Source of the DNA: Pelagomonas calceolata
Taxonomy: Eukaryota
DNA length: 64,000 bases
Assembly (NCBI GenBank): GCA_918797485.1
Contig: CAKKNE010000002.1
Span: 1,550,001 to 1,614,000, forward strand
Direction of reading: 5' to 3'
The position numbers and the translations under genes are program-made. The notes beneath the pieces were generated by a model that saw only the letters and a program-made list of their open reading frames with translations, did not search any database and had not been told where the DNA came from. Shown one piece after another: positions 19,828 through 47,140 of this stretch (positions are counted from its first letter, which is position 1; each line of letters opens with the position of its first letter).

Positions 19828-21282
19828 ATGACCGATGCGGAGGCAACGGGCTCGCGCCGCGAGCGCTGCGCGCTAGCTGCGGCTTTTTTGCTCTCGGAGA
19901 CGACGCAGGACGCGGCGGTCGCGGCGAGCGCTTTGGTGGCGCTCCAGTTGTTCGGAGGCTACGAGGAGTCGCTCTTCATCGTCATCGTCATGACGATGTT
20001 ATTAATTGGCATCCAGCTGTCGCACGTCGTCGGGCGCCGAGGCTGGACGCTGGTCCTCGGCGGCGCGGCGGTCTGCGGCGCGGCCGGGCTTGCGATGCTC
20101 GGTGCGGCGCTTTCATCAAACTTCGGGCCGCGGAACGCTGGGATGTTGGCGATCGCTGGCTCGGTTCTGCTCGGCGCCCACCGCGCGGCGCACATGCTTT
20201 ATAGGTTTGCAGCTTTAGAGATAGGTGGCGTCGCGTGCATGGGCGAGGTCTTCGCGGCGGCGACGTTGGGTGGTTTGCTCGGGCCGCAGTTACTGATAGA
20301 TCTTGGTTTGCAGAAGGGCCTAGTTTGGGCCGCCGTGGCGCAATTGGTCGCCGTGATACCGATCATGCTCGCGACGCGGGGCCGCGACGCCGCGACGGCG
20401 GCCGACCGCGCGACGGCGGAGGACTCCGGGCGCTCGATCACGGCCGCGCTCCGGAAACTGCGCGATGCGGCGCGCGGCGACGCGCTGCTGCGCCTCGCGC
20501 TCATCTGCGGCGTGACGTCGTGGGCGATCATGCTGCTGGTGACCGTGCCGGCCGCGGCCATCGCCGTGGCGTCCTTCAAGATGACCACTTGCGCGGCGAT
20601 CCGCGCGTTGCAGGTGCACATCTGTGTGGAAATCAAATTTCGGGCGCCCCACGCGTCTGCGCGATGGCGTGGCGATTCCACGCTATCGACGCGATGTTGT
20701 CCCCGTGACCGCGTCGACTCCATGGCGTGGAGGCTCGCGAAGGTCCACGGCCTAGCTCACTGGTTGATTTCCGCACAGGTTCACGATTTTCTGATGAACG
20801 CGCCGGGCCCGGCCACGGCCGCCGTCGTCGAGCGCTCCGGCCCGCGCGCGGCCATCGCCTTGGGGCTTTTGATCTACGTCGTGGTCGTGGGCGGCCTATG
20901 GGCCTGCGGGAGCGACGACGCGCTGTATCCTGTGGTGACGGCGGGTGGGCGCGGCGAGCGCTTAGTCCAGCAAGCCTTCTTTGGCCTCGTCGTGGTCTTG
21001 GCCCTAGGCTGGAATTTCATGTGGCTCGCGTCGACGTCGGCGTTGGATGCTGCCGCTCGCGCGGGCGGCGCGACGAGCTGCGGCGAGATAGCGCAGATCC
21101 GCACGGCGAACGAGTTCTGCATCTACTCTGCGTCGGTAGCGTTTCTCCTCGTGTCGATGGTCACGCGCGACCGCTACAAGGACGTCGTCCTCATCAGCGC
21201 GCCGTTCCTCGTGGCAGTGGCCGTGGCAACGGGCCAGGCCAAGTCGCAAGCCTATGGGGTCGTCGAGACGGAGCTCCCGTGA
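19828..21282 (+). CDS. MFS transporter; intron 20614-20778
   Basis: ~12 TMs, VVGRRG loop, YRFAALE, GGLLGP, LGWNF. Confidence 0.75.
   Translation: MTDAEATGSRRERCALAAAFLLSETTQDAAVAASALVALQLFGGYEESLFIVIVMTMLLIGIQLSHVVGRRGWTLVLGGAAVCGAAGLAMLGAALSSNFGPRNAGMLAIAGSVLLGAHRAAHMLYRFAALEIGGVACMGEVFAAATLGGLLGPQLLIDLGLQKGLVWAAVAQLVAVIPIMLATRGRDAATAADRATAEDSGRSITAALRKLRDAARGDALLRLALICGVTSWAIMLLVTVPAAAIAVASFKMTTCAAIRALQVHICVEIKFRAPHASARWRGDSTLSTRCCPRDRVDSMAWRLAKVHGLAHWLISAQVHDFLMNAPGPATAAVVERSGPRAAIALGLLIYVVVVGGLWACGSDDALYPVVTAGGRGERLVQQAFFGLVVVLALGWNFMWLASTSALDAAARAGGATSCGEIAQIRTANEFCIYSASVAFLLVSMVTRDRYKDVVLISAPFLVAVAVATGQAKSQAYGVVETELP
20614..20778 (+). mobile_element. Introner family A intron (165 nt)
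   Basis: TIRs CTGTGTGGAAATCAA/TTGATTTCCGCACAG; degenerate TSD GTGCACAT/GTTCACGA. Confidence 0.85.
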
Positions 21283-21414
21283 GCGTTGTGTGTGTGTCGC
21301 ACCGTGTGTAAGCTATCGAGAATTTATACACCTAACATAGCTAGAACTAGTGGGCGGCCCTGCCCGGCGGGGGGAGACACCGCGCGTTGCCGATTCATCG
21401 ACGGGCGCGTCAGC

Positions 21415-23224
21415 TTAGCAGAGCGGCGAGAAGCCGTACGTCGTCGCGTGGACCACCTGCATAATCCCATCATACGTCATGAGCACCAGCGCGATGAGCA
21501 TGATGCTCGCGATGACAAGAATCACGATCGCGTCCTTTTTGTATTTTCTCACGACCCAATCGATAACCGACTGCCCGAGGAACGTCGAGAACAGGCCGCA
21601 CGCCGCGAAGGCGAAGGCGTAGTCCTTTGGGACCTGTGCGCAAAGCAATCCGTGAGCCGCACCGCCACGCCGTCGAGTAGGCGTCGCGTCGATGGCGTGG
21701 ATGCGCCGCAACCATGTGATTTATGCACTGACGCCGACGAGGCCCATGATCCAGACCTGCGCCAACCCCGACGTCGCCGTGATGAAGACGACGTAGGCCG
21801 ACGTCGCCGCGATCGGCTGGGGGAGGCAGCCCAGCTCGACCAGCAGCGGGCCGAGGACCATGCCGCCCCCAATACCCAATAACCCCGCGGCTATGCCCGC
21901 GAACACACATAACATGGGATACAATGCCGTCGTCCGCCGGTCCCACTGCAAGTCGCCCTCGAGCGGCTCGTGCCCTAGAAACGCCTTCTCCGTGGCCCGG
22001 TCCAGCGTCTTCTTCCTTATCCACGCCGTCGCCGCAATAAGCACCTGTGCGCGAATCAAACCGTGGGTCGGGTGCACCATTTCTCGGCGACGACGCGACC
22101 GTGCTGGTCAAGTCAGAGAACCGCACGGCCAAGCCGTCGAACAGGCGCCGCGTCGATGGCGTGCAGGTCATGGTTCAGCCGTGGTCGGAGAAACGCCGCG
22201 ACATTTGATTCATGCGACATTTGATTCATGCACTGATGAGCACGGCTAAATTGCTGATAAAGAGATACCAGTACAGGAACTGCGAGCAGTCCAAACCCGG
22301 GATCAGCGACGCGCCGCCGCGGCCGCCCCGCAGCAGCGCAAAGACGAAGACGATGAGCCAGATCACGCCGGTGGCCGTCCAGTTCTCGCGCTGCACGAGC
22401 GAGCCCTCCTTGGCGTATATTGCCTCGAGACGCGCCAGTTGATCAGGAGTGGGGTCCTGGCGCGCGATGGGCGGCGCGTCGGCGTGGCCCAGCGGCGTGT
22501 CGATCTCCACGTCCTGCAGGCCCGCCTCGTCGCGCGTCGGCCGCGGACTAAGTTTGTCCTCGCCCGTCCACCGTTTTATCCCCTTGTTTAGAGTGCGTCT
22601 TCCCGAATAGCCGAGCAGCGCTATGAGCAGAACCACCGTGAGCCACGGAGGAAACATGACGCTAAAAACGGAGCCGAACATGGTCCCCGCGAGGAGCGCG
22701 GGGCAGAAGAGCAGGGAAGCCTCGTAGTCGATGAGCGGTCGCTTGATAGTATCGTTCGGGTGGTAGCGCCGCGTATACGTATAGAGGTTCGCGATGGAGC
22801 CCCCCGAGATTGTTGCCAAAGATAACGCCGTCGCTTGCGTGATGGGGAAGCCGGCGACGAGCCGGTAGATGGGCACGAGTAACCCGCCGCCGCCGATGCC
22901 GCCGCCCGCGGCCAGCGCCGTCGCCGCAATCAGTAAAAAGATCGTCGCCCAGTCGTGGCCGTTCGCCGGCACCAGGTCCTTGTGCATACATATGCGCTCC
23001 CGAAAGTCTTCGCCGTCCTCCGTGTCGCGGTCCCATTCACAGCTCGTGCTGAACGGGCACTCCGTCTTGCCGGGGTAGCAGGGGCCGCCCGCGACGCCTT
23101 GCTGTTTCGCCTTGTTCTTGCTGATCGACTCATCCTCTGGTCTCAGCTCTCTGCGGAGCCATGGCTGCTCCTCCAGCGCTGTGGCTGTGCAGCAGAACGC
23201 TACGACAGCAGCGCTTCGACGCAT
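21415..23224 (-). CDS. TauE/SafE (TSUP) family transporter; exons 23224-22244, 22044-21739, 21633-21415 (~501 aa)
   Basis: GGGIGGGGLLVP, RPLIDY, AGLLGIGGGMVLGPLL, AATS; exon sum 1506 nt. Confidence 0.88.
21634..21738 (-). mobile_element. Introner family A intron (105 nt; alternative donor at 21732)
   Basis: Degenerate TIRs, core CGCGTCGATGGCGTGG; TSD eroded. Confidence 0.75.
22045..22243 (-). mobile_element. Introner family A intron (199 nt)
   Basis: TSD ATAAGCAC/ATGAGCAC; internal tandem ACATTTGATTCATGC x2; joins NLA|VLIAA. Confidence 0.88.
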
Positions 23225-23397
23225 GGTGCTGCTCGCCGCAGCAGCAGGAGCAAAGACAGAGGCGCAAAAGAACTAGCTAGCGTACCAACATACTAGAAAG
23301 TTGAAGACTCGTCCTGACGCGCGGTGTCTCCCCCCCAGGGGCCCCGCCCAATAGTCCTATCACCGTAACATCAGAAGACGACTAGTACCCCCCTAAG

Positions 23398-26300
23398 TTA
23401 CACGGTCCCGAAGTCCCCGACGTCCTTCGCCCGCGAGTACGGGCACCGCCCCTCCTTGAGGACGGCGTACTCGAAGTCGTCCTCGTGGAAGAAGCGGTGG
23501 CACGACTGCGAGAGGGCCATGTGCACGTCGGGGATGGCGCTCTTGTAGTACGTCGCTCTCAAACCTTGTTGGCGCGGCTTGCAGCAGAAGACCTCGGCGC
23601 GGTAGAGCGATCTTAATGTTTCGGCGTCGACGGTCACGGGCTTGTACTCGTCGGCGCCGGCTTGCGCCTGGAGCGTGTCGTTGATCGCCCGCGTGAAGCG
23701 GTCCTCGTCGTCGTCGTCGTCGAACACGACGTCAGCTTCCTTCCCTTCACCCGAATTCTTGTCCTCCGGGAACTCCTTGATCAAATCCAAAGCCTCCTCG
23801 TCCGAGATCGACGCCTCCGGCACGAACTCGATGAGCGGCAGCACTTCAAAGTTCAGAAAGCTCCGGACGAACGGGTGGCCGCACGACGTGCAGACGTCGC
23901 GGTGCACGCTCGACCCTTGGCTATGCGATGAAGCAGGGTTCAATAGTGCATTGGAGGCGCCGCAGCGGTAGCAGACCGGCAGCAAGTCGCTCTTATCCCT
24001 TAAAGGCGCCGCATGGATCGTCAACGCCTCCACATCCACTTCATCCCGCCACGCATCCGGTAATTTCATCCTTAATAATTTATCATAAGCATATCTCGCT
24101 AATTTAAAGGCGCCGCAGGTCTTCGCTTGTTTGGCTAGAGTATACAGTATTTTCGCCCGCGAGATACCAAATGGGGCTTCTTTCCCACCCAAGCCATTAA
24201 TTAAGAAGCGAGCGCATTGAAAGAGCACTTCCGGCCGCAACGGCGTATAAGGTAAGAAAAAATCTTCGACATGAGCGTAGGCGTAGTACAAGTCGGCCCT
24301 ATGCAACTGCTCGGTGTACGTAGACATAACTTTCTGTAAGTTATCTTTTTTAGCTGCGACGCGTAACGTCTCGGACGCCAGCAACCAGTAGTAGTAGGAC
24401 GCGTCCTTGAAGCGCGATTCCACGACGGCGTTAAACGTGAGCTCTTGCACCATCCGCGCCGCGCGGTCTTCGCGCCCCGACTTCCTATAAGCTTCCAGCG
24501 CTTCGTCAAATCTGTCGTGGACGGCGAGCCACTCGGCGTAGGGCAGATATAGGGCTTCATCAAATTTCGCTCGAGTTTCTTCGCTGAAGGTCCCGCTCGG
24601 GTCCTCCGCTAATTTGAGGGCCGCCTCCCAGTCCTGCTTTCGGACATATAAGCCTAGTAAAGATTCAACATCATCAAGCTTCACGTAGACCTCTTTGGCC
24701 CGCTCGTCGTCGCCTGCGGGGACATCGACCAGTGTGTCGGGTGCATCGCCACGCCATCGAGCAGTGACAAGCTCTCTCGCGACGCCTCGCGCTGCCCACG
24801 GCGACGACCTGAGGCGCTCATCCACTGATAGGGAGCGTCTCGCAGCACTACTTCCCCACAGTTGAGACTCGCGTCCGGCGACGCGTCGATGGCGTGGAGG
24901 TCGACGCGACGATTTCCACACGGATCGTCGCCGTTCGCCAAAAACGCGCGCGCGCACTGCCGCAGCACATCCTCCGCCGTCACCTGCCGTACTATGAGAG
25001 AAAGTTTCTCGATCCAGCCGTCCGGCTTGTGTTCGTGTAATAGCCTGTGCGCAAATCAACCAGTGAGTCGCGTGCACCGTCGAGCGGCGAGGAACCGGCA
25101 TCGCCACGCCATCGAGCAGGCGTCGCGTCGATGGCGTGGAGGTCGACGCGATGATTCAGCACACAGGTAAGAACCGAACGGCCTGCAGCGCATTCCCGGC
25201 AGACACCTGCAGATCCGCGGCGGCGGACCAGTCCGACGTCTCTTCCGCCCATTCCGCCTGCTTCCTGGTTAATTCGGTCGCGTCGACGTTCTTCGACGCA
25301 GCGGCAAAGGCCTTGGCCTCGTCCCATTGCCGCAAGTCCGCGAATAGGTCGATGGCCTTCTGCGGCTCGCCGGCCTTCGCAAACGCTCTGGCCGCGTCCT
25401 GGTACTTGCCCTGGTAGGCCTGGAGCTCGGCGCGGAAGATGGGCGCTAGTTTCTCGACTTCTTCCGGTAGACCTGCGCGGAGCATCAAATTCGACAAAGA
25501 AACCACCCCCGGCCATCATTCCTGGAAACGAGTGAAGTGGAAGACACCTCAACGCCTCAAAACGCGGCGATCGAACCCTCCGGTTCCGCTTTCTTCCTCT
25601 TGGAGATCTTCTTCGGTTTCGCGACCGGCATCCGCCGCTCCATCGACGTCAGTAACTCGATCCGTCGCAGGTCGTGGACCTTCGCATACGCCGTTTGTGC
25701 TGTGGTCAAATCTAACGCGTTTGCTGCGGAGTCGGCTAAGCTTCTCCAATCCGTCGCCGTCACGCCGAGGCGCGCGCAACTCAACCCTCTAGAATGTTCA
25801 TTCTTGGAGATGAACTGTTTCAGATGATCGGACTGGGGCAGGTCCAGCGACTCGATTTTGAGGTCCCTCGCCACAAATAATTTAGCCCCGACGAATCCGA
25901 CGACTGACCCTGAAACTTTGTGGACCTTGGCGTCGTGGTCGCCCGTCTTCACTAATAATTCATCGCGGTCGTTCCGCGAGTAGCACAGCGTGTCGTCGAA
26001 CTGGGCGTTGAAGCGACACGCCGAGACGCCCTCCGCCTGTGTCGAACGACAGATGGCTGTGTAGACGCTCGCACGGCCGCGTCGATTGTGTGGAGGTGGC
26101 GTGACGTCGTGGCGACGCCCTCGTCCCAAAGTTGAAGTTCATTCATCAAAAACGGACGCCGAGTCGGCACCGAGAACACGAGTTCTTTACTACGAGTGTC
26201 GACCACTTTGAGCTCGTTCTCTTGATTCACGACGGCCAGCTTCCTCCTATCACCCGTCCGATCTAGTAACTTGACCGCGGCTTCACCTGCGCGGAGCGTC

Positions 26301-27972
26301 GCGGTCGCTCGACGCCGACCGAACGGCCTCAAACTCGACAAAGAAACCACCCACTTCATGGTGAGATGGATACGAGTCGCGTCGACGGCGTGAAGGCACC
26401 GAAGCACCGCGGGACGCCGAGATCGCACCTCTCCAGACGTCGACCGGAAACGCGTTGTTCACGTAAATTTTCAGAATGGAACCATCACTACAACCTATCA
26501 GTACGCCCTCCTTGCTTGGTGGACCGCCATCTACTCTCAGACACGTGATATCAGCGTCGAGGATCCATTCTCGCTCCTTCAACTTCGAGAAGCCGTGTAG
26601 AGTTAACTTCGCACCAGAAGCTACCAACACATGTTGCGACGTCACCCCCAAATGATTCGTACGAGAACCGTCGACCCTCAACCTTTCTTTCCGCAAGCGA
26701 TAGTGCATATCAATACTGTTGTCATCCCTCTTATGAAGTTCGTACACATTAATTCGATCCGGCAGTTGGATGGCCAGCCGATCCCGATAGATCGCCACCT
26801 TCCGCACGTAGTCCCTACTCTTAATACGCACGCGCTTCTCGGCGTGCATGTGGTGGACGACCACGTCCGTCAGGTGTTCCCGGACCGCGAACCGGTCGCC
26901 ATCTAATGCGTATATAGGTTCAATTACGACATCCCAGAGCTGGATGGAGCCGCCGTAGGACCCAACCGCTATAGCAGGTTGGCGAGGCCTCACAGCGGTG
27001 GACCAGACCCACTCGTCTATACGACAAACGTCTTTGAGTCGCACGGCTTCCCTCGTACACAAAGTTGTTTTCTTGTCACTGCCACCGACCACTAAATACT
27101 CGCCGTTCGGGTAATAGGAGAGACTGGTCGGATAGCATCCTAATTTTCTCTCTTTCAAATGTTGGGTCCCGGACAGCTGGTAGAACGACAGCGTCTGGTC
27201 CCAGCACCCGACGGCCAGGAGGTCTCCCGGGTCCTCCTTCGCGGGACTCCAGGCCAGGCACCAGACTGGGGCTTTCTTTTCAATCAGCTTGTACTCCTGG
27301 CCACCCTTGTCTCGTATACTAATGCGACCGTCGTACATACCTGTGTGGGAACGATGCCGTCACGAAACCGTCTCCCTCGCGAGACGCGTGGACTCTCTGA
27401 CGGCCACGTCGACGGCGTCGCGGCGGTGCGGTCTCATGAAGACGCCATCGCCGCGACCACGTCAGGTTCAAGTTCATTTTCTGCGCCGAGTCAGCACCAA
27501 GAGCCAAGTACTGCCCGTCGTGCGACCACCTCGCGGACAAAATCTTCGCCCCGACCTTGTGCTTCGTCACGGACTTGGCCGTCGAACTCCACAACCCAAA
27601 ATCACCCTCGGTGCACGACGCGAGCTGGTCGCAGCAGGGGTTGTGCGCGACGACTTGGATGCTATCGCTATGCGTATATTTTAACACTCCTTCTCCTTTG
27701 CTGTTCCAGATAATCACGGTGTTGTCCGCGCCGCCCGACGCAAATTTAGAACCTTCCCTCCCATAACTGACGGTGTACACCAAGTCCTTGTGGCCTCTTA
27801 ATCTGTGTCGCAGGTCGCCGTCTTCAGTAGCGTATACTAACACAAGGTTAGCTACAGCGACCACCAGTTCCGTCCCGGACGGGTTGAAGGCCATGCTGTA
27901 GACCGTGGCCTTGACGTCGTCCTCGCGCCGCGGCGGGAGGCCCGGGTCCGTCCAGAGGAGCTGGGGCCGCAT
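23398..27972 (-). CDS. IFT122: Intraflagellar transport protein 122; 7 exons (27972-27498, 27340-26429, 26286-26171, 26036-25577, 25472-25175, 25044-24932, 24713-23398), ~1229 aa
   Basis: N-terminal WD40s (LRGHKDLVYTVSY, ASGGADNTVIIW, GVLKYTHSDSIQ), PYAEWLAVHDRFDEA, AFKLARYAYDKL, CYRC/CGHPFV, C-terminal RCPY; exon sum 3690 nt. Confidence 0.95.
24714..24931 (-). mobile_element. Introner family A intron (218 nt, GC-AG)
   Basis: TSD GTCGTCGC/ATCGTCGC; joins ANG|DDERAK. Confidence 0.88.
25045..25174 (-). mobile_element. Introner family A intron (130 nt)
   Basis: TSD GTAATAGC/GTAAGAAC; joins AVR|LLHEH. Confidence 0.85.
25473..25576 (-). mobile_element. Introner family C intron (104 nt)
   Basis: GTTCGATCGCCGCGT...GATGCTCCGCGCAG; restores IFT122 frame. 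Confidence 0.82.
26037..26170 (-). mobile_element. Introner family B intron (134 nt)
   Basis: GTGCCGACTCGGCG...ATGAACTTCAAC...CGACACAG. Confidence 0.82.
26287..26428 (-). mobile_element. Introner family C intron (142 nt)
   Basis: GTGCGATCTCGGCGT...CTCCGCGCAG. Confidence 0.85.
27341..27497 (-). mobile_element. Introner family B intron (157 nt)
   Basis: GTGCTGACTCGGCG...CCCACACAG; joins LAL-G|MYDG. Confidence 0.87.
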
Positions 27973-28108
27973 GCTTTTTGTGAGAGGGGGCTGCCCGTAC
28001 CGCTTCGCTGCTGCCCCTGGCCGCTGAAACTGATGGAAGCGGCCCGCGGCGCAGCCCGACGTCGTCGCGTGCGCCCGGCGCAGGCGAGACGGTGTCGCGC
28101 CCAGCTTA

Positions 28109-28235
28109 AAACCTGGGGCTGCCGGCCGCCCGTCGGGCGCGGCGTGACACATCATAACAGAGGCCTCGGGACCGCCGGCCGTATGGCTGACGAGGTCTGG
28201 GAGGGGGATCTCAAATATGAATAAAAAACGGGTTT
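28109..28235 (+). repeat. 127-bp direct repeat, copy 1
   Basis: Identical by eye to 30677-30803 (AAACCTGGGGCTGCC...AATAAAAAACGGGTTT). Confidence 0.95.
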
Positions 28236-28928
28236 GAACTACTAGTGTGTATAGATACTGCTAGCGTCCAAATTCCGAAGCGCGCACCCGCGGTTCTCGG
28301 GGGCCGCCCGGCCCCGCGGGCGCGCCGCGAGACGTCCGCCGGCGTTGCGCTGACAACCCGGGCCCTCGGCCCCGCGCGCCCGGCGCGCGCGGGGCGCGCG
28401 AGTACTACCGCCTGGGCGCCCGGGGGTCGCGTCCCGCTCGGGGCCGCGCGAGTCCATACCGGGCCCCGAGCTCCCCGGGACGAACGCGAAGGGGGTCGCG
28501 CGGCGCGACGGACGCCCCGCGTACCACACGCCGCGCAGGGGGTGACTCGGACCTTGGCCGGGGGGTCTCCGCCGGGCCGCGCAGCGCGGCTCGGAGACTC
28601 CTCTCGGGCGGAGGAGACGCCGCCGCCCGACGCCGCGCGCCGCTCCCGGGACGCGCGCGCGGCCAGAGCCGTCCCGGCGCGGGAACCAGAACATGCAGGG
28701 GTCGCGCCGATGCGTGCGAAACCGGGCCGGCCGCTGCTAGCCGGCACGTGCGCCGGGGCCCTGCCGCCGGGGCTTGTTTTTGGGGCTTGTTTTTGGCAGC
28801 GCCAATCCTTTGCCAGCTGCTCCAGAGGGCGGCCCCGCACCTGTTTGCCCGTCGTTTCCACGCCCGCGGTGTGAGCGCTGAGCTGCCCTTGCTGGCTAAA
28901 CCCCTGCCCTCGCCCGTGGCCGGGGGCC

Positions 28929-30613
28929 ATGCGGTTCCTCGTTCCCGTGGCTGCCCTCTTCGGCGGCGCTGCCGCGCAAATTGGGCGCGTCACCAGCGTC
29001 CGAATTCCGTGCGCCTTGGCCCCACCCCACGCCCCTCCCCCCGCAGCTCGCACCAGATGCTCGCCGGCTACCAGTCGGCCTCGGACGTCGGGCCGCACTC
29101 GATGATCGACCTCGACATGGAGGAGCTTGAAACTAAGGTGGGCGAGTACGCCACCAACGCAAACTGGATCACCGAGGCCATGTTCATCTACGAGAACGGC
29201 GGCGGCGGCTTGTGTTCGCAGGCCGACGTCGACGCGGCGATGACCTCGGACACGACGCCCTGGTGCACGGACACGACTCAGGCCTTCGGCAACTCCCAGA
29301 AGTCCACCTCGATCCGCACGCTCAAGGGCTTCGCGACGAAGAACTACGCTTCGGACAAACTCACCGGCGCGGATGGTGGGAATTACGGCGAGCGGATGCC
29401 CCCGATCTACGCCGGCTACTGGAACGACTGGGCGTGGGCAGACACGTTCATCACGAAGGACTACTCCGCGACAGTCAAACCCTCTGGGTGGAACCAGCTC
29501 ATCAAGAAGGGCGCCAACTACCAGGCGGTCTGGATGTACGTCCTCCACGAGCTTGAGGACGCAATCGGCGACTGCTACGCCGGCGACATCTACGCCAACG
29601 ACGGGACCCCGACCGGCGGCGCGCCGCACGCGTGGGACGAGGGCTGGGCGTTCTACGCCGGCTCTCAGGTCGCGGCGACGGCGGCCGGCGCCGTCACGGA
29701 CGACGGTACGCTGATCTGGGAGCTCGCGGAGAAGCGCGGCAAGGGTTTCGACACCACACACTCCACCGGCCCCGCCACGGTGAACGTCAAGCTCCTCGCC
29801 AAATTCATTGAGGGCCGCGACCTCATCATTGCCGGCAAGTGCGCCGAAGCCGAGTCCCTCGTCGACCCGATCCGCGCTCAGATGACGGTGCCGCTCGTCC
29901 AGGGCACGCTCAATTACGCGTTGAAAGCGGCGGACCCGGCCAACGCCATTAGCGCTTGCGTCGTCGACGCCGGCAAGAACGCCATGACCGCCAGCGACGA
30001 TTGCGTCGAGTCGTGGGCCGATGCCTGGGCCTTCGCCGCGGCCGTGCTCCCGCAGGTCGCCGAGTGCGACTGGGGAGCCGCCGAGACGATCAGGTATAAC
30101 TTAGACATCGAAGCGGCGGCGCCGGTGCAAGGGGGCTTCTACAGCGTCAAGTCGGCGATCGAGTCGACGTACCGGTGCCTGGGCATCACGTGCGCCGACG
30201 TCGGCGCTTACCCGGGCACCATGCCCTGCAGTGAACCCGACGACGATGACGACGACGACGACGACGACGACCTCCTCGACGGCGGCCTAAGGGAGGTCAT
30301 GTCCCTGGCGCCCATGGGCCTCGCGGCGATCGGACTTACGTTCACCGGTATTAGCATCGCTGCGATCGCGAATGCGTTCCAGGAACAGTGCGCCCTGGGC
30401 CCCACGATCATCTTCGAGGCCGGAACCACACATCCCTACTACATCACCCCGAACCTGTGCACGATCGGCGCCCACACGTACTCGTCCAAGAAGACTGTGC
30501 GCGACGCGTCGCCGCGCAAGGTGTGCCGCAAGTTCTGCGAAGCGGCGTCCGCTTCTGGGAAGCTGGCGCTCAAGCAGGTGCACGGCCTGACGTGTTACTG
30601 CAAGAGGAAATGA
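28929..30613 (+). CDS. ISIP2A: Phytotransferrin / iron-starvation-induced protein 2A (FEA1 family); exons 28929-28984 and 29047-30613 (~540 aa; alternative intron 28998-29056)
   Basis: Signal peptide MRFLVPVAALFGGAAA; HSMIDLD, VWMYVLHELEDAIGDC, HAWDEGWAFYAGS, LAEKR, MTVPLVQGTL; poly-Asp linker, TM, Cys-rich tail. Confidence 0.85.
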
Positions 30614-30676
30614 TCAGGGGTCGAACTCTCCTCCTTCTCTGGACCCGCCCGCGAACCTGACCTTTCCCTTCTTTTG

Positions 30677-30803
30677 AAACCTGGGGCTGCCGGCCGCCCG
30701 TCGGGCGCGGCGTGACACATCATAACAGAGGCCTCGGGACCGCCGGCCGTATGGCTGACGAGGTCTGGGAGGGGGATCTCAAATATGAATAAAAAACGGG
30801 TTT
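30677..30803 (+). repeat. 127-bp direct repeat, copy 2 (contains AATAAA, 3' of ISIP2A)
   Basis: Identical by eye to 28109-28235. Confidence 0.95.
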
Positions 30804-30931
30804 TGCTCGATTACACAGATACACAGACCCAAGCTAGCGTAACGCGGTCTCTAGCAAGCTACCGCCGCCGTGACATTTTATTTAGAGTCATACTAGTAGA
30901 CATACTAGCGAAGGGCAAACAGATACATATC

Positions 30932-33900
30932 TTACGCCCGCGCCTCGGTGAGCTCCGAGACGTCGTCGTCCAGGATCACGCGCGGCGAGCCGAGGTCCGA
31001 CACGTCGTCCTCGGCCTCGCCGTCGACGTCGCCAAGCGGCCGCGCGGGCGACGCGGCGCGGTCGTGGACGGAGCCCTCGTCGAGCGCCGAGACCTCGTCG
31101 GGCAGCGGCGAGCAGACGGAGGCGTCGCCCTCCTCGAGGACGGTCCAGAGGTGGGCCGGCGCCGGCGCGGCCCCGGGCGCCGGCGCCGGGCCGGGCGCCG
31201 GGCCCGGCGCGGGCGCGGGCGCCCAGGCCGCGGGCGCCGGCGCGCCGTTTGGAGCCGGCCCCGGCGCCGGCGCCCCCACACATGACCACGCGTCCTCCGC
31301 GATGTACGCCGGCGCGTCGGCCTCGGTCGACGCCCGGGATCTCCGACTCTTCCGTTTCGGCCTCTTCGGCTTTTTATGTTTCGCGGCCACCGGCTCGATC
31401 CACGCCGACGACTTGCCCCACTCCTTGCCCGCCTCGCGCAGGACGTGCGCGACATCTAGGTCTCCGGTCGAACCGTTGCGAGCGTCCGTCAATAAAACGA
31501 ACAGTCGTTGTTGGGCCGGCTCCGGCTCCGGTACCGCCCATTGCCCTTGTCGTAATCGCTCATCTAACTCGGCGGCGATATCCTGCGCGGAGCATCGCGG
31601 TTCGGTCCGAACGGCCTCTTCAGCAAAAAAGAAACGACCCCCGGCATCGTGAGATGGCCACGAGTCGAAGGCACCGTACGGGACGCCGCGAGCGCACCCG
31701 CAAATCCGCCATCGACGTCCTCTCTCGAATTTCGTCGGGGAACTCGCGAGACACCCACTTCTCCCGTTTGTCCGCCTCGATGGCCTCGCGCGTGAACGGT
31801 CGCAGGCGGTCCGGTCGACGCGGCTGGTAGTCCTCGACCTCGCCGCGCAGCAAGCCGTCGTCATCCTCATCATCATCATTGCTCTTCTTCTTCTCCTTCC
31901 CCAGGGCCTGGCGGTAGGTCACGACGACGTTGCCGTGCTCGTCGACGTTCGGCTGCTCGGAGGCGACCTGCGCGGAGCATCGCGGTCGTGGAGTGGTAAG
32001 GGAGGATCGGGCGACGTCGTGTCCGGGAATGGTGGCGGTGGGTCGTTTCTCGTTGAATTTTGAGGCGATTTCGAGGTGATTCGGTCGACGTCGCTCGACG
32101 CGGTCCGAAAGGCCCCAAAATCGGAAAATAAACCACCCACGACCTCCTCTGATGGTCACGAGTCGCGTCGATGGCGTGAAGGCGGACGCAGAGCTCGCAC
32201 CGTGCTCTCGTCGTCCTTCTTGAAGACGTTCTCGTTCTTCTCTTTGGGCGGCGCTCGTCTATTATCCCGCTTTTCAAATTCGTCCATCAACAGTTCGTCG
32301 GCCGAGGGCGCGACGGCCCAGGCCGGCGGCGGCCAGACGTGTAACGATACCGAACCGCCACTTCTCGTCCGTTCGCGTTTCCGAGCTTGTTTTCTGGTGC
32401 GTAACGGGAGGGAGATCTGGGCCGGCTGAGAACTTGTAGGAGCCGTCGCCGCGTCCTTCGGCGGCTTGGGCACGGCTTTGAGCTCCAATAACAAATCCCC
32501 GGCACTTATCCGGGCTTCGCCCAAGCACAGGTCGCCCCGCAGCTCCTTGCGCCAGACTTCGACGATGAGCGTCCACTTCGGGGGTTGCCAGCTTGGCAAC
32601 ACCTCGTACGGGGCCTGCCATTCTCCAGATGCCATCGGCGGCGGCAGGGAGCATAGATAACTAAATGAAGCGGGCGCGCCCTGGACCCTCGTGCGACAGG
32701 GTTTTGTGGTGCCGACCTCCCACTTGATCAAGGAGGCTTCCTCCGCCTCCTGGCGCATGGCCTCGGCCGCGTCCTGGTCGAAGCCCTGTGTGGAACATAT
32801 ACAATCGCGAACCCGTCTCCGTCCACTCACGAGACGCGTGGACTCTCGTGTGATCATGAAGACGCCATCGACGCGAAGCGGCATCGCGAGGACGCCATCG
32901 CCGCGACCACGTCATGTTGAAGCTCATTCTTCACGCTGAGTCAGCACCGGCACGTTCTGCTCGAGCAAGTCAAAGCCCAGATCCGTCAACGCTTGGTCGA
33001 TCTCGGGCTTGACGTCCTCCCTACTCATCAGTAGACACTCGGCGTCTTGGCGCTCCCGCTCCTTCTCTTCGGGAGTCTTCGCGTCCTCCAAAGCTTGTTT
33101 TCGCTGCCTCTCGGCCTCCTCGTACCTGCGCGGAGCATCGCGTTTCGAAGTGTCCATCTCAGCATGACGTGGGTGGGCTCTGGTCCTTCAATGAACCGGT
33201 TCGGACCGAGTCGCGACTCGACGGCGGTCGCGGTCCCGACTCGGTCCGAACGGCCTCAAAATCACAAAAGAAACCAGCCACGTCATCGTGTGTTAGGTAC
33301 GAGTCCCATGGAAGGCGCCGCAACGCCTCAAGACGCCGCGCGCGCGCATGCTGATGCAATACACGAGCTCGTCGTAATCGAGCGTCCGGTCTCCGTCGAC
33401 GTCGAACGCACTGAACACGGTCGACGCGTTCGCCGTGAGCCACGTCACGAAGGGATTCAGGTCCTCGTCGAACAGGGCTCTCTGCAGTTCTTGTATTGTT
33501 AGTTTCCTGTGATCCGTGTCGACGCCTCGCAAACGCTTAGCTGCGACGGCGAGCGCTTCCTCTAACGTCTCCGGCTCCTTCTCCTTCTCTTTGGGCGCGT
33601 TCGGGTCGGGAGCTTCATCGTCGCCCGTGTCGCAGATGTCGAGAATCTTCTTCGCGATCCTATACTTGTTGCCCGTCCCGTCGAAGACGACCAGAGACCG
33701 CTCCGACTCGGTATCTGAAGCATCCTCTACTATTTCGGGCTGTCTTTCCCGCTCTTCGATGCGCAGAACCGCGTAGGTCTCGTTCCTACCAAACACACTT
33801 TTGTGTTTCAACTTGCAGGCCTCATTTAACCTGAGAGGCAGCTCATCCACCCCAATTTCCTGGAGGAACTGCTCGCGATGAGCTTTGGTCTCCTGTCTCT

Positions 33901-36900
33901 GTTGTAATTGTTTTTTACTGATACTTCGAGCCTGCCGCAGAGCCACTGTCTCCAGCGCATTCGCCTCCTTCAATCCTAAAGCGCCGGGGTACTTTGAACA
34001 CCACGCATCGACCACAAACTCGCAGGCCTCGGGGATGACCTGCCGCGTCGTCTTCCTCCGACCCTCGCTGTCCTTCGGTGTGCTATCAGCAATTCTCTCC
34101 ACAGCGTCCGTGTGCAGCTCCAGCGGCTCCAAACCCCTTCGGACCTCGATGGACACCCAGATCTCCTGGGGCAGTTCTTTTACACTTGCCACAGATTCAT
34201 CCTCAGAACTATCCGTGACCCACTCGTAGACCGACTCGTACTCGGGCACGTCGTCCCCGGCCTCGAGCGCCCTCCGCTCCGCCTCTTCCCGCTCCTTGCG
34301 CTCCTCGTCTTCGCGCTGCTTCTTCTTCGCTTCGCGCGACAATGCACTTTTCTCGAAGTCGTCGAACTTGCCGTACCTGCGCGGGGCGGCGGTTTCGCGT
34401 GCCGCGGCCGTCGGCGCGCGTCGCGAGGCGTCGAGGCGTGTCGCCTCCACGAGAGGAGGCGGCCAGTGGTCTTTTTTTCGAGTTTGAGCCGCTTCGGACC
34501 GCGTCGAGCGACCGCGTCCGAATGACCTCGAAGTCGACAAAGAAACGACCCCCAGCATCGCAACACCTCAAGACGCCGCGCGCGCGCAGCTTGTTCATCT
34601 TCTCAATATTCGTGTCGTCTTTCGCGTTGAAGGTCTTCCGCGCGAGCGCCGTCACCTCGTCGACGCCGTCCCAGCCCGCTATTTCGAGCCACTTCTCGTA
34701 CAGAGTCTTGTCGTCGTCCCGCGAACATTCGGCGATCAATGAAGAAAGTACTGCTCGCGCCGGCCGGACGTCGCCGCGCGTCAGATGCGCCTTGGCCAGC
34801 AAAAAGCGCCACTTCGGCGGCCACGGCTCCGGTAGACTTCGTAAACATCTCTTGGCCGCTTGAACAGCTTCCGTGGCCAAACGAGCACCCAAACAAGCTT
34901 CAGCATAACAAGCACACAAGCGAGCGACCTCCACCTGATCGAGGGCCTGGCCCATGGCCTTCTCCTGGGCCTGTATCGCGGCGCGACACGCTCGTAAAGC
35001 GTCGCCCGGCGACCGTGTCAGACGACACTGAGCCATTGTATCCAAAGCGTCGTGGTATTTCGTGCGAGCGTCTCGCTGATTCTTTTCAGATCGATAAATG
35101 GCGTCGTTCTGCCGCGCGTTATCACCCTTGCGCGCGGCGTTCCGCCAGGCCGCCTCCGCATTTTGGACGTTGATAACACCTGTGTGGCACAGACACCGTC
35201 GCGACATTGTCTCCGTGCACTCGCGCGACGCGCAGACTCTCATGTGCTCATGAAGACGCCATCGACGCGACGCGGCATCGCGTCGACGCCGTCGCCGCGA
35301 CCACGTCACGTTGAAGTTCAATGAAGACGCTGAGTCAGCACCAAGATACTTCGGGAAGCACTCGGCGATGGCCACGCCCCGGTGGATGAGCCGCGCCTCC
35401 TTGGCGCGCTGTCTTGCTGAAGCCGCAGCAGAGGGCTTGTTCTCTTCGTCGGAATCGGACGAGTCCGAGTCGCGGCGCTTTTCCTTTGAAGGCGCGGGCG
35501 GCTCCGGTTGCAGACCGAGGGCGATGCGTTCCGCCATGAACGCGGCGTGCGCCCTCAACTGCTCGGTGGGCACGTGCCAGTGCGGGTCGGACAGCGCCGC
35601 CGACGCGTTCGGCCCGCGGCTTCTCTTTAAGCGCGCTTCGCTGTGCGGGTCGCGGCCCCACGGGTTTTGGATTCGATCCGCATCTTCCCTTATTCCCGCG
35701 TTTCTGCCATCTACGAGTGCTGCGGCCGCATCTAGACACCGGTGCATGAACTGACGCCGTTCGAGCGCTCGCGCTAATAAAGGTCGTCGTCTCCGGCCGC
35801 CGTCCGCCGCGTCTCGCGCCATACGAGGATCTTCTCTCTGTAACCAAGTAGTCTTGGCGACGACTTCCCGCCCCAACTCGACGCCGTTCGCATCTCTGGC
35901 AACCACAATCAATCCGTCGCCCGCGTCCAACGCCGTCGAAAAGAAGGCTGCGGCACCACCTCTCGGCCGTCGGACCACCGCCGCGGCGAAGGGTAGCGGC
36001 GCCGGCCGCAACCCGACTTGTAATCGAGTTTTGAACGTTCTATGATTTCTTTCGGCGATACGCTTCAATGGACTTGTACCCTGCTCCGTCTGCCGACAGA
36101 CCCAATGCGACACGCGCACGCAGAGCTCCCTACGCGCGTCGGGCGGCGCGTAGACCCAGTGCAGGTCGGCTTCCGCTCCTGCCCTATCTCTCCATTCATT
36201 TTTATCTACAGACATGGACTCGCCCTCGTCCTCTGAACTCTCGTCCGTGCTCTCGGCACCCGAATGCTCTCGCCTCCTGGCTTGTCTAGTTCGTACTCGT
36301 AGGGAGAAGCCGCAGTCCAACACGTCGCATCGTAACGACGTATCTGAGAGAGATCGCACGCTCCGACAACCAACTGGTGTAGCTAAGTGAGTGAAGCGCA
36401 ACTTCGCGGCCGAAGCCGCCGCCGCGGCCGCGCGATCGCAGTCCCGCGACCGATATCTAATGATAGACGTCGTCAGCCTCGACAAACCCATCTGGTGCTT
36501 GCGCACCTTCTTCAACATCAGTTCCGACCGTCGCTGCAAATCCCCGAGTCGCAACGCCTCCGCGCCGCACGCACACAACGCGCACTCGACCTGGACGCGC
36601 TCCCGCCGCCTCGATTCCTCATTACTCACACCTATTTGGATCTTCTCGCCCAGGTCGTCGGGGTCCCAGGTCTCGGCCTGCGTGTTTCAAACTTCAAGTT
36701 GGGCTTCAACTCGGGGTCTGTCGTGGTCTGAGAGAGGTTCGAGTGTATCTCTCGGAGGTCGTGTCCGAGTTTGGGCCTCTCAGAGGGCCGCGGTGCCGAG
36801 ACCGCTCTCACTCGGCGAGACGCGAGGATCGCATCGATGGCGTCGGACGATGCTCCCAGACGCCGTCGACGCATGGTTGATGTCCACACGGGTCTCCGCG

Positions 36901-39900
36901 AGCGTCGTTGTTTCTTCACTCGACACTTTCGCTTCGGGACTCTCCGGATCTAGTAATTTAAAGGCAGCGACCCACCAGCCCGCGGCCGGCGGCGCGAGAT
37001 CCTGTATTCTAGTCCACAAGACCTCCGCTCGGTCGTGGATGGCTATCAATTGTCTTCCTAAGTCTAAAACTTCTTTCCTCAATGAAGACGCTTCGCTACG
37101 CAGGTCGTTCGCGTCCCTGCCGTCCCTGTGGGCCTGCCGCGCCTCGGGCGTGCCGTAGCGCACCTCGGCAATCCTCACATCTCGCAGGAACGACGCGCGA
37201 CCGATAGCAGGTTTGCACGCCTGATGTTCACGCTGTTCTCGTCTAAGAACGTTCTCAGCGTCCTTTCTTTCGCGTCGGACGGCCATGCCGGCGGCCACGG
37301 CCACGGTGAGCTTGCCCTGGGCCTGTGTGGGAACGGCACCGTCGCGAAACGACCGCGACTCTCTCACGAGGCGCGTGGGCGCTCTGGCGACCGCGTCGAC
37401 GACGTCGAGGCGATGCGGTCTCATGAAGACGCCATCGCCGCGACCACGTCAAGTTCAAGTTCATTTTTCACGCTGAGTCAGTACCGTTTCCGTGGTCCCA
37501 CCCTTGAGAAGCTTTTTCGCTTTTCGAGTCGAGAACAACTCGAGCAGACCCTTTTCTCTTTCTAAAAACACGCGGTGCTGCTGCTTCGATTGAACGCCCG
37601 GTCGCATCGCGTCCTCGACCAGTAAAGTCGCGTCGTTGCGATGTCTATCACATACGCCGAGCTCGTCGTCGTCCCCTTCGTCGTCGGACGGCGGTCGCGC
37701 GCCCCAGGACTCGCCGTCGCTATCGTCCGATGGTAATTCTGCTAGCTCCACCTTCTCCGAGGCCGTCGTAATTAGCGAAGCTGCTTGTAGCGTCTGCACG
37801 GAGCCCTGGTGGAATTGTACTGTAGAGTCCTCCTTGAGCGGGGAGATGTCCGTGTGTAATGTGAGGACCGAGTCCGTTTGTAATCCCGGGGACGCCAGAG
37901 ACTCCGTCTGGAGCGTTCTGGGGGACGCCTGCTCGTCGAGGATCGCCAGTTGTGTAGCACGGGGGCTCGCGTGCGGCGTCGCGTGCGGCGTCGTCTCCCG
38001 CATTTCCACAATTCGCGACGCGCGCGACGGCGCCGTCGCCTCGGAGCGTTGGCCGATCGTGGATTGGGCGAGGTCGTCGTCAATTTTCAAAGCCTTCTGG
38101 ATGGAGACGGGCTTGCTCAGCTGCTTTTTCAACCGTCGCCGCTCCTTCCGGACCCGGCGCAGAGCCTCCCGTTCGACGCGCGTCTTCCGCGCTCGTCTCG
38201 GCTCGTCGTCACTCTCGTTGCGCCGCGGTTCGGCACCAACAATAGAGTCGACCTTCTGTCGCAAACGAGCCGTCGTCGGGTCCGCGAGACCGAGCTCTAC
38301 TAGTCTAGCAGCGACGCCGCGCTGCTGGTCTCTGGAAAGCCACTGCAACGGCGCTCGCAATTGTCCTAATGAGAACCAACTTTCGATGGAAGTGACACAC
38401 AACGCCTTCGCGCCGGACGGCACGTGCCGAGCTTCCAACTCAATTCGGCCGTCAATTCTTCGAGCCGACGCGAGCCACCTCTCCAAGCCCACTCGCCCTT
38501 CCGCATCGTCCTTTAAATCTCTCGAACAGGCCGTGCCGCAGGCCAACTTAATGACGGACCGCCAGAGCATGCGATTCGTATTCGCGAAGTGCCGCGACGT
38601 GACACCTCGTAGGCGCCAGTCACTACCGGAAGTACGAGGGATCCTATCTGTACTACAAGGCAAATCACAGCCGTCATGAGGCAAAGCGCACCATGTCTCA
38701 GCAGTGGGCCACACTAACGCATCGGACGGGTGCACACATAGCACCGGGACGCCGTGGCGCGTCTCGAGTCTTAGAGAAAGGGCTCGACACAATTTCGCCC
38801 TTTCAAGGTCCGCGAGCCACTCCAGCCTCGAACCATAGCCTAACAAGCGCCAGTCGCTCATTTGTAGCGAGTATCTATGAGCTCCTCTCTTCGAAGGAAC
38901 GTGCGCGTCGCACCAAGCTAATACTATACGCAGCTCCTGTTGAGTGGTAGTGAACCGCAGCCGACACGGCACGTCTCTGACAAGGCAGGCCACGTCACAA
39001 CTCCATTGCTCTTCCTCGTCGATGCTGTCCTCGAGGCCGTCGAGTACGAGTCGGCCCCGCTTCACATCGACACAATCGGCGACGGCTTCACACAATGAGG
39101 CGCGCGCTCGAGCCGACCAGACCGCATCCCCTCGGCAGTACTCCTCGAACCCGAGCCCTCGGATGTAGGACGACGGGAGGTCTCGCTCCAGATGATTCGG
39201 CGCGGCCCAGTCGCTCGCCGAGCGCTCGGGCGCCACGCTCCCGTCCTCGGTGCCGACGCGCGACGCCGCGGCCGACGTTGGCCGCGACGTCTCGCGCGAC
39301 GCCGGTCTCGATGTTTCGCGGCTCGCGGGCCGGCTCGTGTTGCGAGAGGACGGCCTCGACACCGAGTTCTCGCGCGACGCCGGGCGCTCCGGCGAGAGGA
39401 GCCGCCGCGTCCCGAAGGCCTTGAAGGCCTCGGCGTCGTCCTTACGGGCTCTGCGCGACGAGCGGCGCCGGGCGAGCGCGTCTCGCGCCCCGCCCCGCTT
39501 CATGGCAGATGAAGTGGCCTCGCGGGCCTTCTCTCTATCAATCAACAACGCGTCGCTCCGGTCCTGGGCCTCATCTCTCCTCGTGCGGCCACACAAGCGC
39601 ACGTGGACCCGCCACCGCAGGTCCTCCGGTGCTGCGCCGCGCGCCTCGTCTTCGTAAGACAATCTAACGATGCAGCGCCGGCCCTTCACGACTCTGATAC
39701 ATGAATAAGGTGGATTGCGCGGCTCTATTCTAGCTAACGCTCTTCTCACTCTGTCTAAAGCTTCCTCTCGCACCTCAAGGACATCAGAACCCTCCTCGTC
39801 ACAAGAGGCCTTCTCGAGCGCGTGCAAAGGTAGCCAGTACCGCTCCGTGCAACACAGGCCGTCCAGCTCCACTTCGGCCGCATCTCTCGCGGGCACGACC

Positions 39901-46910: not shown

Positions 46911-47140
46911 AAGCAGCAATGCATCCTTCCCAGGCCCCGCCCACTAGTCCTAGCACCGTAACAATATACACGCCTCCAATGAATCGGAAGGACGAGCCCG
47001 GGCGGAACATTACCGGTCTAAGACGGCGGAGTGCGAAATAAAATCGCAGCACTAAAACGGGCCCCGTCGAACGTGCGACAGAATCACCGCACTTCTAACC
47101 GCACTAAAACAACGGCTGCGAAGAAAAACAAACACAAAAC

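What the first reader, a model, noticed from the sequence alone, without database searches (positions are those of the whole stretch)
28109..30803. Phytotransferrin (ISIP2A) gene in a 2568-bp unit bounded by a perfect 127-bp direct repeat
Seen: 28109-28235 and 30677-30803 are identical. The repeat contains AATAAA, and copy 2 sits 64 bp after the ISIP2A stop. There are no TG...CA ends and no outer TSD. The unit includes an extremely GC-rich non-coding stretch (~28270-28690) and has no introner, unlike both neighbouring genes. Inference: recent integration of a circular DNA by homology, or one unit of a tandem array that may be collapsed in the assembly. Either would allow copy-number gain or loss of an iron-uptake gene by recombination between the repeats, which matters in low-iron oceans.
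Basis: partly seen in the sequence, partly recalled or inferred. Interest (0 to 1): 0.75.

Follow-up and report, generated by a model that had tools for sequence, protein, structure and literature searches.

The report
Iron-uptake gene inserted with 127-bp duplication
An already annotated iron-uptake gene of the ocean alga Pelagomonas sits between two identical copies of a 127-base stretch that a related alga carries only once and without the gene, so it likely landed there by a DNA insertion that duplicated its landing site, a rarely documented way for such algae to gain copies of this gene.

Summary
The repeat is real: 127 bp, identical, and the longest exact repeat in the window (next 40 bp). 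The enclosed gene is a Fea1/ISIP2A protein identical to Pelagomonas calceolata CAH0367801.1. A syntenic metagenome contig from a diverged relative (L001) has the same two neighbours, one copy of the 127-mer with copy 1's left flank and copy 2's right flank, and no ISIP2A. Two protein read-throughs from other records point to the same empty state. So the repeat is native intergenic DNA, duplicated on both sides of a 2441-bp insert. It is not an LTR or a repeat carried by other ISIP2A loci, as far as tested. The copies' identity dates little, because the block differs at only 2 of 173 bases between lineages whose silent sites differ about 62%. The gene keeps its intron and upstream region, so the move was likely DNA-level. 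It is a mosaic that ends in an unannotated cysteine-rich module shared by many unrelated proteins. Both break points read A^AAACC on opposite strands (P about 0.003, post hoc). Read depth, circles and empty alleles within the species were not tested.

The parts
23398..27972 (-). Left neighbour IFT122 (start ATG ending at 27972); the 127-mer lies 137-263 bp upstream of it
   Evidence: Pfam PF23381 E 6e-51; syntenic in L001; gene order TauE, IFT122, Fea1, EF-hand matches the published gene table
28063..28235 (.). Highly conserved native non-coding block (173 bp) that includes copy 1 and 46 bp to its left
   Evidence: 2 differences against L001; longest identical run (108 bp) of the 12-kb comparison, next 53 and 50
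28109..28235 (.). Copy 1 of the 127-bp duplication; keeps the native left flank (IFT122 promoter side)
28236..28270 (.). First bases of the insert: AT-rich CTAG cluster of the kind usually found behind stop codons in this window, here with no stop beside it
   Evidence: 11 of 16 CTAG clusters lie within 200 bp of the end of a coding-like frame; this is one of the 5 that do not
28271..28928 (+). GC-rich upstream region of ISIP2A (likely promoter and 5' UTR), with the palindrome GCACGTGC at 28744-28751, 185 bp before the ATG
   Evidence: GC peak 82%; no Pfam hit for the one + strand ORF tested; no Rfam match at gathering score; 7 of 8 match to the diatom low-iron motif ACACGTGC described near -200
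28929..28984 (+). ISIP2A exon 1 (hydrophobic N-terminus, likely signal peptide)
   Evidence: spliced frame identical to CAH0367801.1; hydropathy
28985..29046 (+). 62-bp GC-AG intron, shared with other Pelagomonas-type ISIP2A genes
   Evidence: read-through peptides of other ISIP2A types match it at 86%
29047..30613 (+). ISIP2A exon 2: Fea1 domain (about 29057-30214), poly-Asp linker, C-terminal module, stop 30611-30613
30299..30613 (+). About 104-aa C-terminal module (hydrophobic stretch plus six-cysteine domain) found on many unrelated proteins
   Evidence: 61 clusters at E<=0.01; 50 representatives; N-termini include DUF285; no Pfam family; no clear fold match
30614..30676 (+). 63-bp remnant of the ISIP2A 3' UTR, ending at the junction with copy 2
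   Evidence: similar to the read-through of P0315, which then continues with other sequence
30677..30803 (.). Copy 2 of the 127-bp duplication; keeps the native right flank; its AATAAA (30788) may serve ISIP2A
   Evidence: use as a poly(A) signal is inferred
30815..30927 (.). Separate 104-bp length difference against L001, bounded by a 9-bp direct repeat (30815-30823, 30919-30927); carries 4 CTAG and a minus-strand AATAAA (30877)
30932..37976 (-). Right neighbour, EF-hand gene (stop at 30932; extends at least to 37976)
   Evidence: syntenic in L001; EF-hand entry next to the ISIP2A gene in the published table

Best explanation
The unit is a 2441-bp insert carrying a complete Fea1/ISIP2A gene, flanked by two copies of a 127-bp stretch that a related lineage has once at the same site with no gene, and it most likely arose as a DNA-level insertion with an unusually long target-site duplication. 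Shown: the empty orthologous site, the native and conserved nature of the 127-mer, the retained intron, and the mosaic protein. Inferred mechanism: the short spacer between the EF-hand gene's end and the IFT122 start was nicked on opposite strands 127 bp apart, both nicks at A^AAACC. A DNA copy of an ISIP2A gene with its upstream region was joined into the break, and fill-in of the gaps duplicated the spacer. A replication template switch that left at one A-tract and returned 127 bp back gives the same product. The duplication would leave IFT122 its promoter side and the EF-hand gene its downstream side, which likely made the insertion harmless, and copy 2 may supply the ISIP2A 3' end. The protein likely works as a secreted, surface-held phytotransferrin (family inference; iron binding untested). 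The direct repeats would allow later loss or tandem gain by recombination, but that was not observed.
For: L001 is collinear with window 21016-37976 and has one 127-mer, copy 1's left flank, copy 2's right flank and no ISIP2A by tblastn. Of 44 IFT122-start proteins examined, 5 read through upstream and 2 reach the far end of the block; both (P0319, P0321) show the copy-2-type flank joined through one block to the IFT122 start. Conservation runs 46 bp past the left end of the repeat, so the repeat is not a self-contained element. The ISIP2A intron matches those of other ISIP2A types at 86% in translation, and long blocks of the protein are 97-100% identical to other types, while the window and L001 differ at 61-64% of four-fold sites. 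This fits a gain after the split. The intron and about 690 bp upstream are retained and there is no poly(A) tract at either junction. Both break points share the context A^AAACC on opposite strands; random break pairs reach this symmetry at 0.002-0.003. A similar 3' UTR in another record continues with other sequence at the point where the window enters copy 2 (P0315).
Against: Only one empty site is seen as DNA, and it belongs to a deeply diverged relative. The two protein read-throughs rest on one diagnostic residue each plus context, and a filled allele would not be visible in that assay. No donor locus DNA was obtained, so junction microhomology could not be tested. The symmetry of the break points was noticed after the fact, and both ends are conserved A-tract motifs that may simply be fragile. 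No outgroup with DNA polarises gain against loss. Assembly error was not excluded with reads.
Confidence: 0.6

Rival explanations
1. The filled state is ancestral, and L001 and the other relatives lost the gene by recombination between the two copies.
For: The empty site has exactly the structure such a deletion leaves. The block evolves so slowly that two old copies could stay identical: P about 0.14 even if they were as old as the split (rough Poisson estimate).
Against: Three records from at least two differing lineages are empty. The gene's intron and coding blocks are nearly identical to other ISIP2A types despite near-saturated silent sites between lineages, although gene conversion could also do this.
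Confidence: 0.1
2. A DNA circle that already carried the 127-mer integrated by homologous recombination.
For: The repeat-gene-repeat geometry fits. There are weak hints that the insert is circularly permuted: it starts with 3'-end-type sequence, and its first bases, placed after its last bases, agree for about five nucleotides with the continuation implied by P0315.
Against: The 127-mer is native DNA of this site, and no evidence places it at any other ISIP2A locus. The permutation match does not extend beyond two residues. A circle joined without homology into a staggered break falls under the best explanation.
Confidence: 0.08
3. A LINE-type enzyme made the long target-site duplication while reverse-transcribing an unspliced ISIP2A transcript, as R9 (126 bp) and Dualen elements do for themselves.
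For: The length is close to R9's 126 bp, and Dualen duplications are longer still (passage in 10.1101/2022.05.23.493040). The gene's 3' end abuts copy 2 at an A-tract.
Against: The intron and about 690 bp of upstream DNA are present. There is no poly(A) tail, and the insert codes for nothing except Fea1 in the frames tested.
Confidence: 0.08
4. The unit is one repeat of a tandem array collapsed in the assembly, or an assembly error.
For: The structure equals one unit of an array, and depth could not be checked here.
Against: The named record with the identical protein lies on a 6.14-Mb contig. The published assembly of that species used nanopore reads and names only one collapsed region, 150 kb on another contig (a coarse check). 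The same protein from Met23 on is found on 3 independent JGI contigs (P0123).
Confidence: 0.07
5. The 127-mers are two copies of a small transposon or LTR that bracket and carry the gene.
For: The ends are 5-bp inverted (AAACC..GGTTT).
Against: No TG..CA, no outer duplication, no transposase or gag/pol found in the unit. There is no third copy in the window, one hit in metagenomes, and the sequence is conserved in place with its flank.
Confidence: 0.05

Closest known systems
ISIP2A / phytotransferrin (Fea1 family, PF07692), five genes in P. calceolata (PMC9481584)
   Same: Fea1 domain above the Pfam cut-off and a hydrophobic N-terminus. The protein is identical to CAH0367801.1, and by neighbour order it is the gene listed as Pca_2p08400.
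   Different: It has one Fea1 domain, not two. It ends in poly-Asp plus a hydrophobic stretch and a six-cysteine module, where the paralogue CAH0367865.1 ends in a short Ala-rich hydrophobic tail. The flanking duplication and the module did not appear in the passages I read.
Long target-site duplications of non-LTR elements (R9 in rotifers, 126 bp; Dualen in Chlamydomonas, median 900 bp)
   Same: Native target DNA of over 100 bp duplicated on both sides of an insert, explained by two nicks far apart (passage).
   Different: The insert here is a host gene with intron and upstream DNA, with no retroelement coding and no poly(A).
Templated insertions by replication template switching (MMBIR/FoSTeS)
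   Same: A segment copied from elsewhere, with a duplicated flank and a mosaic insert. I saw the search listing and abstracts only; the details are recalled.
   Different: Microhomology at the junctions could not be tested without the donor. The symmetric break context fits nicking better.
Extrachromosomal circle re-integration and repeat-bounded amplicons (e.g. yeast LTR-bounded gene circles; recalled)
   Same: A gene between direct repeats can loop out or amplify.
   Different: Here the repeats were made from the target site, and no circle or copy variation was observed.

Membership tests
ISIP2A/Fea1 phytotransferrin | Fea1 domain PF07692 | tested here: met
   61.2 bits against cut-off 25, profile 24-338 of 359
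ISIP2A/Fea1 phytotransferrin | Signal peptide and membrane anchor | tested here: inconclusive
   Hydrophobic N-terminus (mean 1.38) and one hydrophobic stretch at aa 442-460 (mean 1.89) by Kyte-Doolittle only; no dedicated predictor was run
ISIP2A/Fea1 phytotransferrin | R/K-E/D-x-x-E/D motifs reported for Ostreococcus Fea1 | tested here: not met
   0 matches. The motif is described for OtFea1 only (passage), not as a family requirement
ISIP2A/Fea1 phytotransferrin | Carbonate-dependent Fe(III) binding and low-iron induction of this paralogue | not testable with these tools
   Three of five ISIP2A genes are induced at low iron. The table naming which ones was cut from the held supplement
Insertion with target-site duplication | Empty orthologous site with one copy and both outer flanks | tested here: met
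   L001; P0319 and P0321 at protein level
Insertion with target-site duplication | Gain rather than loss, polarised by an outgroup | tested here: inconclusive
   Indirect only
LTR retrotransposon / solo LTR | TG..CA ends, short outer TSD, gag/pol inside | tested here: not met
Processed retrocopy (LINE-mediated) | Intron loss and poly(A) tail | tested here: not met
   62-bp intron present, no tail
Helitron capture | TC..CTRR ends, no target duplication (recalled) | tested here: not met
   The insert begins GAAC and ends TTTG, with a 127-bp duplication
MITE / composite transposon | Dispersed copies of the bounding element | tested here: inconclusive
   None in the window, 1 hit in metagenomes; the whole genome was not available
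Collapsed tandem array | Raised read depth or reads with more than one unit | not testable with these tools
   No reads were obtained
Known RNA family in the conserved block | Rfam match at gathering score | tested here: not met
   5 matches at E<=5, all far below gathering score; none covers the block beyond a 20-nt fragment; fold z -2.5 and -2.0

The most novel reading that the evidence does not exclude
Pelagomonas actively shuffles its surface-protein genes at the DNA level. ISIP2A domains and a shared, unannotated C-terminal cysteine-rich module are recombined into mosaics. Whole gene units, possibly as circles opened in the 3' UTR, are dropped into intergenic spacers by a nuclease that nicks A^AAACC on both strands about 127 bp apart. 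This would leave repeat-bounded iron-uptake cassettes that are present, absent or amplified in wild populations according to iron supply.
Probability: 0.15. Interest if true: 0.78.

Novelty: new variant of a known kind. Interest (0 to 1): 0.5.

Why it matters
P. calceolata is abundant in iron-poor water, and its phytotransferrin family is expanded and iron-regulated (PMC9481584, PMC13284251; passages read). This locus gives a base-exact filled and empty pair that shows how one member was likely gained. It makes three questions directly testable with existing ocean metagenomes: whether the cassette is present, absent or amplified across iron gradients; what produces 127-bp target duplications around an intron-bearing host gene; and what the shared C-terminal module does on so many unrelated proteins. 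The gene itself is already annotated and no copy variation within the species is shown, which limits the score.

Tried and rejected
No whole genome is held for the window, no sequencing runs were obtained, and the rest of L001's record is not held. Depth, circles, within-species empty alleles and genome-wide copy number therefore remain open. Scans that found nothing: the repeat 20-mer in viral and prokaryotic contigs, 0 hits each; ISIP2A or its tail in viral contigs (one search reported one related stretch but returned no locus) and in prokaryotic contigs. A 20-mer of the insert start hit L002, a 39% GC phage-like contig with only 22 matching bases; this is chance. The idea that the block codes for an N-terminal extension of IFT122 looked attractive, because the frame is open in the window and L001 and both differences are silent in it. 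It was rejected because other records read the block in different frames or are frameshifted (P0319, P0321, P0328, P0355), though long-read errors may account for some of this. An RNA gene in the block: no Rfam support. The two-hairpin fold with an ANANNA hinge resembles an H/ACA RNA (recalled pattern) but z is only -2.5. Tail fold: model mean pLDDT 74; Foldseek best E 0.31; VIA best Z 4.3; Atlas best score 0.76; none is a match. No PDB sequence relative of the whole protein at E<=1. Bacterial promoter scan uninformative. Three look-ups of earlier findings returned nothing. Literature searches showed no paper on this repeat or on ISIP2A mosaicism in pelagophytes; subscription papers, cut supplements and bioRxiv supplements were not seen.

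Full report
Observation. The two 127-bp stretches are identical. They are the longest exact repeat in the window (next 40 bp) and have no third copy there. The unit from copy 1 to copy 2 is 2568 bp, so the inner segment is 2441 bp (28236-30676). The gene starts at ATG 28929, has a 62-bp GC-AG intron (28985-29046) and stops at 30613. The 540-aa product carries Fea1 PF07692 and is letter for letter Pelagomonas calceolata CAH0367801.1. The neighbour order TauE, IFT122, Fea1, EF-hand matches Pca_2p08380-08410 in the supplementary gene table of PMC9481584. That table lists 5 PF07692 genes in the part held, two of them adjacent and 64 genes away. I read passages, section 10 and supplement search hits of that paper. 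The gene is therefore already known as one of five ISIP2A genes.

The empty site. A 26-mer from the repeat, scanned against the JGI metagenome collection, gave 1 hit, L001. L001 is collinear with window 21016-37976 at about 71-91% identity per block and lacks most of the window's introner-like introns. Between IFT122 and the EF-hand gene it has one copy of the 127-mer, preceded by copy 1's left flank and followed by copy 2's right flank. tblastn finds no ISIP2A in its 12 kb. Among 44 proteins with the IFT122 start region, 5 were called from further upstream, and 2 of them reach the far end of the block. Both (P0319, P0321) show the copy-2-type flank running through one block into IFT122. That evidence is thin, one diagnostic residue each plus context, and a filled allele would be invisible to it. 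All three empties come from relatives, not demonstrably from P. calceolata itself.

What the repeat is. It is native spacer DNA between the end of the EF-hand gene and the start of IFT122. Window 28063-28235 differs from L001 at 2 of 173 bases, while four-fold sites of IFT122 differ at 68 of 112 and 42 of 66. The 108-bp identical run there is the longest of the comparison. The conservation extends 46 bp beyond the repeat's left end. The one other spacer covered (23230-23398) is also conserved in blocks but has indels, and read-throughs from other lineages show the block's two ends kept and its middle changed. So strong regulatory constraint is the simplest reading; a recent exchange of this tract between lineages is not excluded. 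It is not a coding extension of IFT122 (frames differ among records), and Rfam has no match. The consequence for dating is that identical copies are expected even for a fairly old duplication (P about 0.14-0.8 depending on age).

The insert. It begins with an AT-rich CTAG cluster. In this window 11 of 16 such clusters lie near the end of a coding-like frame, and this one does not, so it looks like displaced 3'-end sequence. A GC-rich stretch follows, the richest 400 bp of the window, with GCACGTGC 185 bp before the ATG. This is a 7-of-8 match to the diatom low-iron motif described near -200 (passage of PMC3491386). The palindrome occurs 3 times in the window, so this is only a lead. The intron matches those of other ISIP2A types (86% in translation). 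The protein is a patchwork: aa 61-180 are 97-100% identical to the P0013 type, which falls to 30-67% over aa 181-420, and aa 341-420 and 461-540 are 95-100% identical to the P0363/P0365 type (87% between them), against 62% or less for most other types (18 types compared). A transcriptome protein, P0001, carries a 20-aa patch of the paralogue CAH0367865.1. Some of this could be assembly chimerism in short-read data. The last 104 aa form a module found in 61 clusters of 57-182 aa and 50 representatives of any length. It sits behind unrelated N-termini, including DUF285 in 3 of 26 tested, stalk-like and Cys-rich regions, usually after a poly-Asp run. It has no Pfam family and no clear fold match. 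A record with the same type of tail has a similar 3' UTR up to the point where the window enters copy 2, and other sequence beyond it (P0315, frameshifted read-through).

Mechanism. Shown: one native copy in the empty state, two copies around an intron-bearing gene in the filled state. Inferred: gain after the split from L001's lineage, because the gene's parts are far closer to other ISIP2A types than the two lineages are to each other. A retained intron, about 690 bp of upstream DNA and no poly(A) argue for DNA-level movement. In the native site the left break on the top strand and the right break on the bottom strand both read A^AAACC; random break pairs reach that symmetry at 0.002-0.003 (post hoc). 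I therefore favour two staggered nicks 127 bp apart, joining of an ISIP2A-bearing fragment and gap filling; a template switch is the close alternative (together 0.6). Duplicating the spacer would leave each neighbour its own side. Long target duplications are known for R9 (126 bp) and Dualen LINEs (passage of 10.1101/2022.05.23.493040), but those inserts are the retroelements themselves. Hints of circular permutation (terminator-like start, about five matching nucleotides to P0315's continuation) are too short to rely on.

Against and open. There were no reads, no genome and no donor DNA. Loss in relatives (0.10), circle integration by homology (0.08), LINE-assisted insertion (0.08), a collapsed array or error (0.07) and a transposon-bounded unit (0.05) remain. 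The supplement notes of PMC9481584 mention only one collapsed 150-kb region on another contig, which is too coarse to exclude a 2.6-kb array. Which ISIP2A paralogues are iron-induced could not be read: the table was cut from the held file, and PMC13284251 uses other gene ids (passages and 11 of 17 supplements searched).

Verdict. This is a real insertion of a known iron-uptake gene with an unusually long target-site duplication: a new variant of a known kind, interest 0.5. It would deserve about 0.78 if presence, absence or amplification in wild populations, or a recurring nick motif, were shown.

Noticed in passing
window 30299-30613: An unannotated C-terminal module of about 100 aa (hydrophobic stretch, six invariant cysteines including CxxxC and CxC, basic end) is attached to many unrelated proteins; distant relatives at 33-41% exist (P0404, P0406, P0408). 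It may be a shared anchoring or sorting tag (inference).
   Followed up: partly
window 28063-28235; L001 5920-6092: A non-coding block with 2 differences in 173 bp between lineages whose silent sites are near saturation; function unexplained. It folds as two hairpins with an ANANNA hinge (z -2.5).
   Followed up: partly
window 30815-30927: A second, 104-bp length difference against L001 bounded by a 9-bp direct repeat, with terminator-like CTAG motifs and a minus-strand AATAAA. P0321 appears to have a different insertion at about the same spot.
   Followed up: partly
window 23330-23370 and 46925-46965; L001 near 2070-2110: The same motif of about 30 bp (a GGCCCCGCCC run, then ACTAGTCCTAGCACCGTAA-like sequence) occurs in two unrelated intergenic regions; a candidate shared regulatory element.
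   Followed up: no
window 21016-37976 vs L001: Most introner-like introns in IFT122, the EF-hand gene and TauE are absent from L001, which has a few of its own at other positions: lineage-specific introner gain with clean empty sites.
   Followed up: no
proteins P0001-P0256: Pelagomonas-type ISIP2A proteins share sequence patches in many combinations, suggesting frequent gene conversion or recombination, or assembly chimeras.
   Followed up: partly
P0319 and P0166: An empty IFT122 site and a different ISIP2A type are both listed on an ENA contig of 358,384 bp, possibly the same contig. This fits ISIP2A paralogues lying nearby in the empty lineage.
   Followed up: no
window 53383-54033 and 60646-61107: A 258-bp tandem repeat (79% identity) and 72-bp periodic repeats, probably LRR-like coding repeats.
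   Followed up: no
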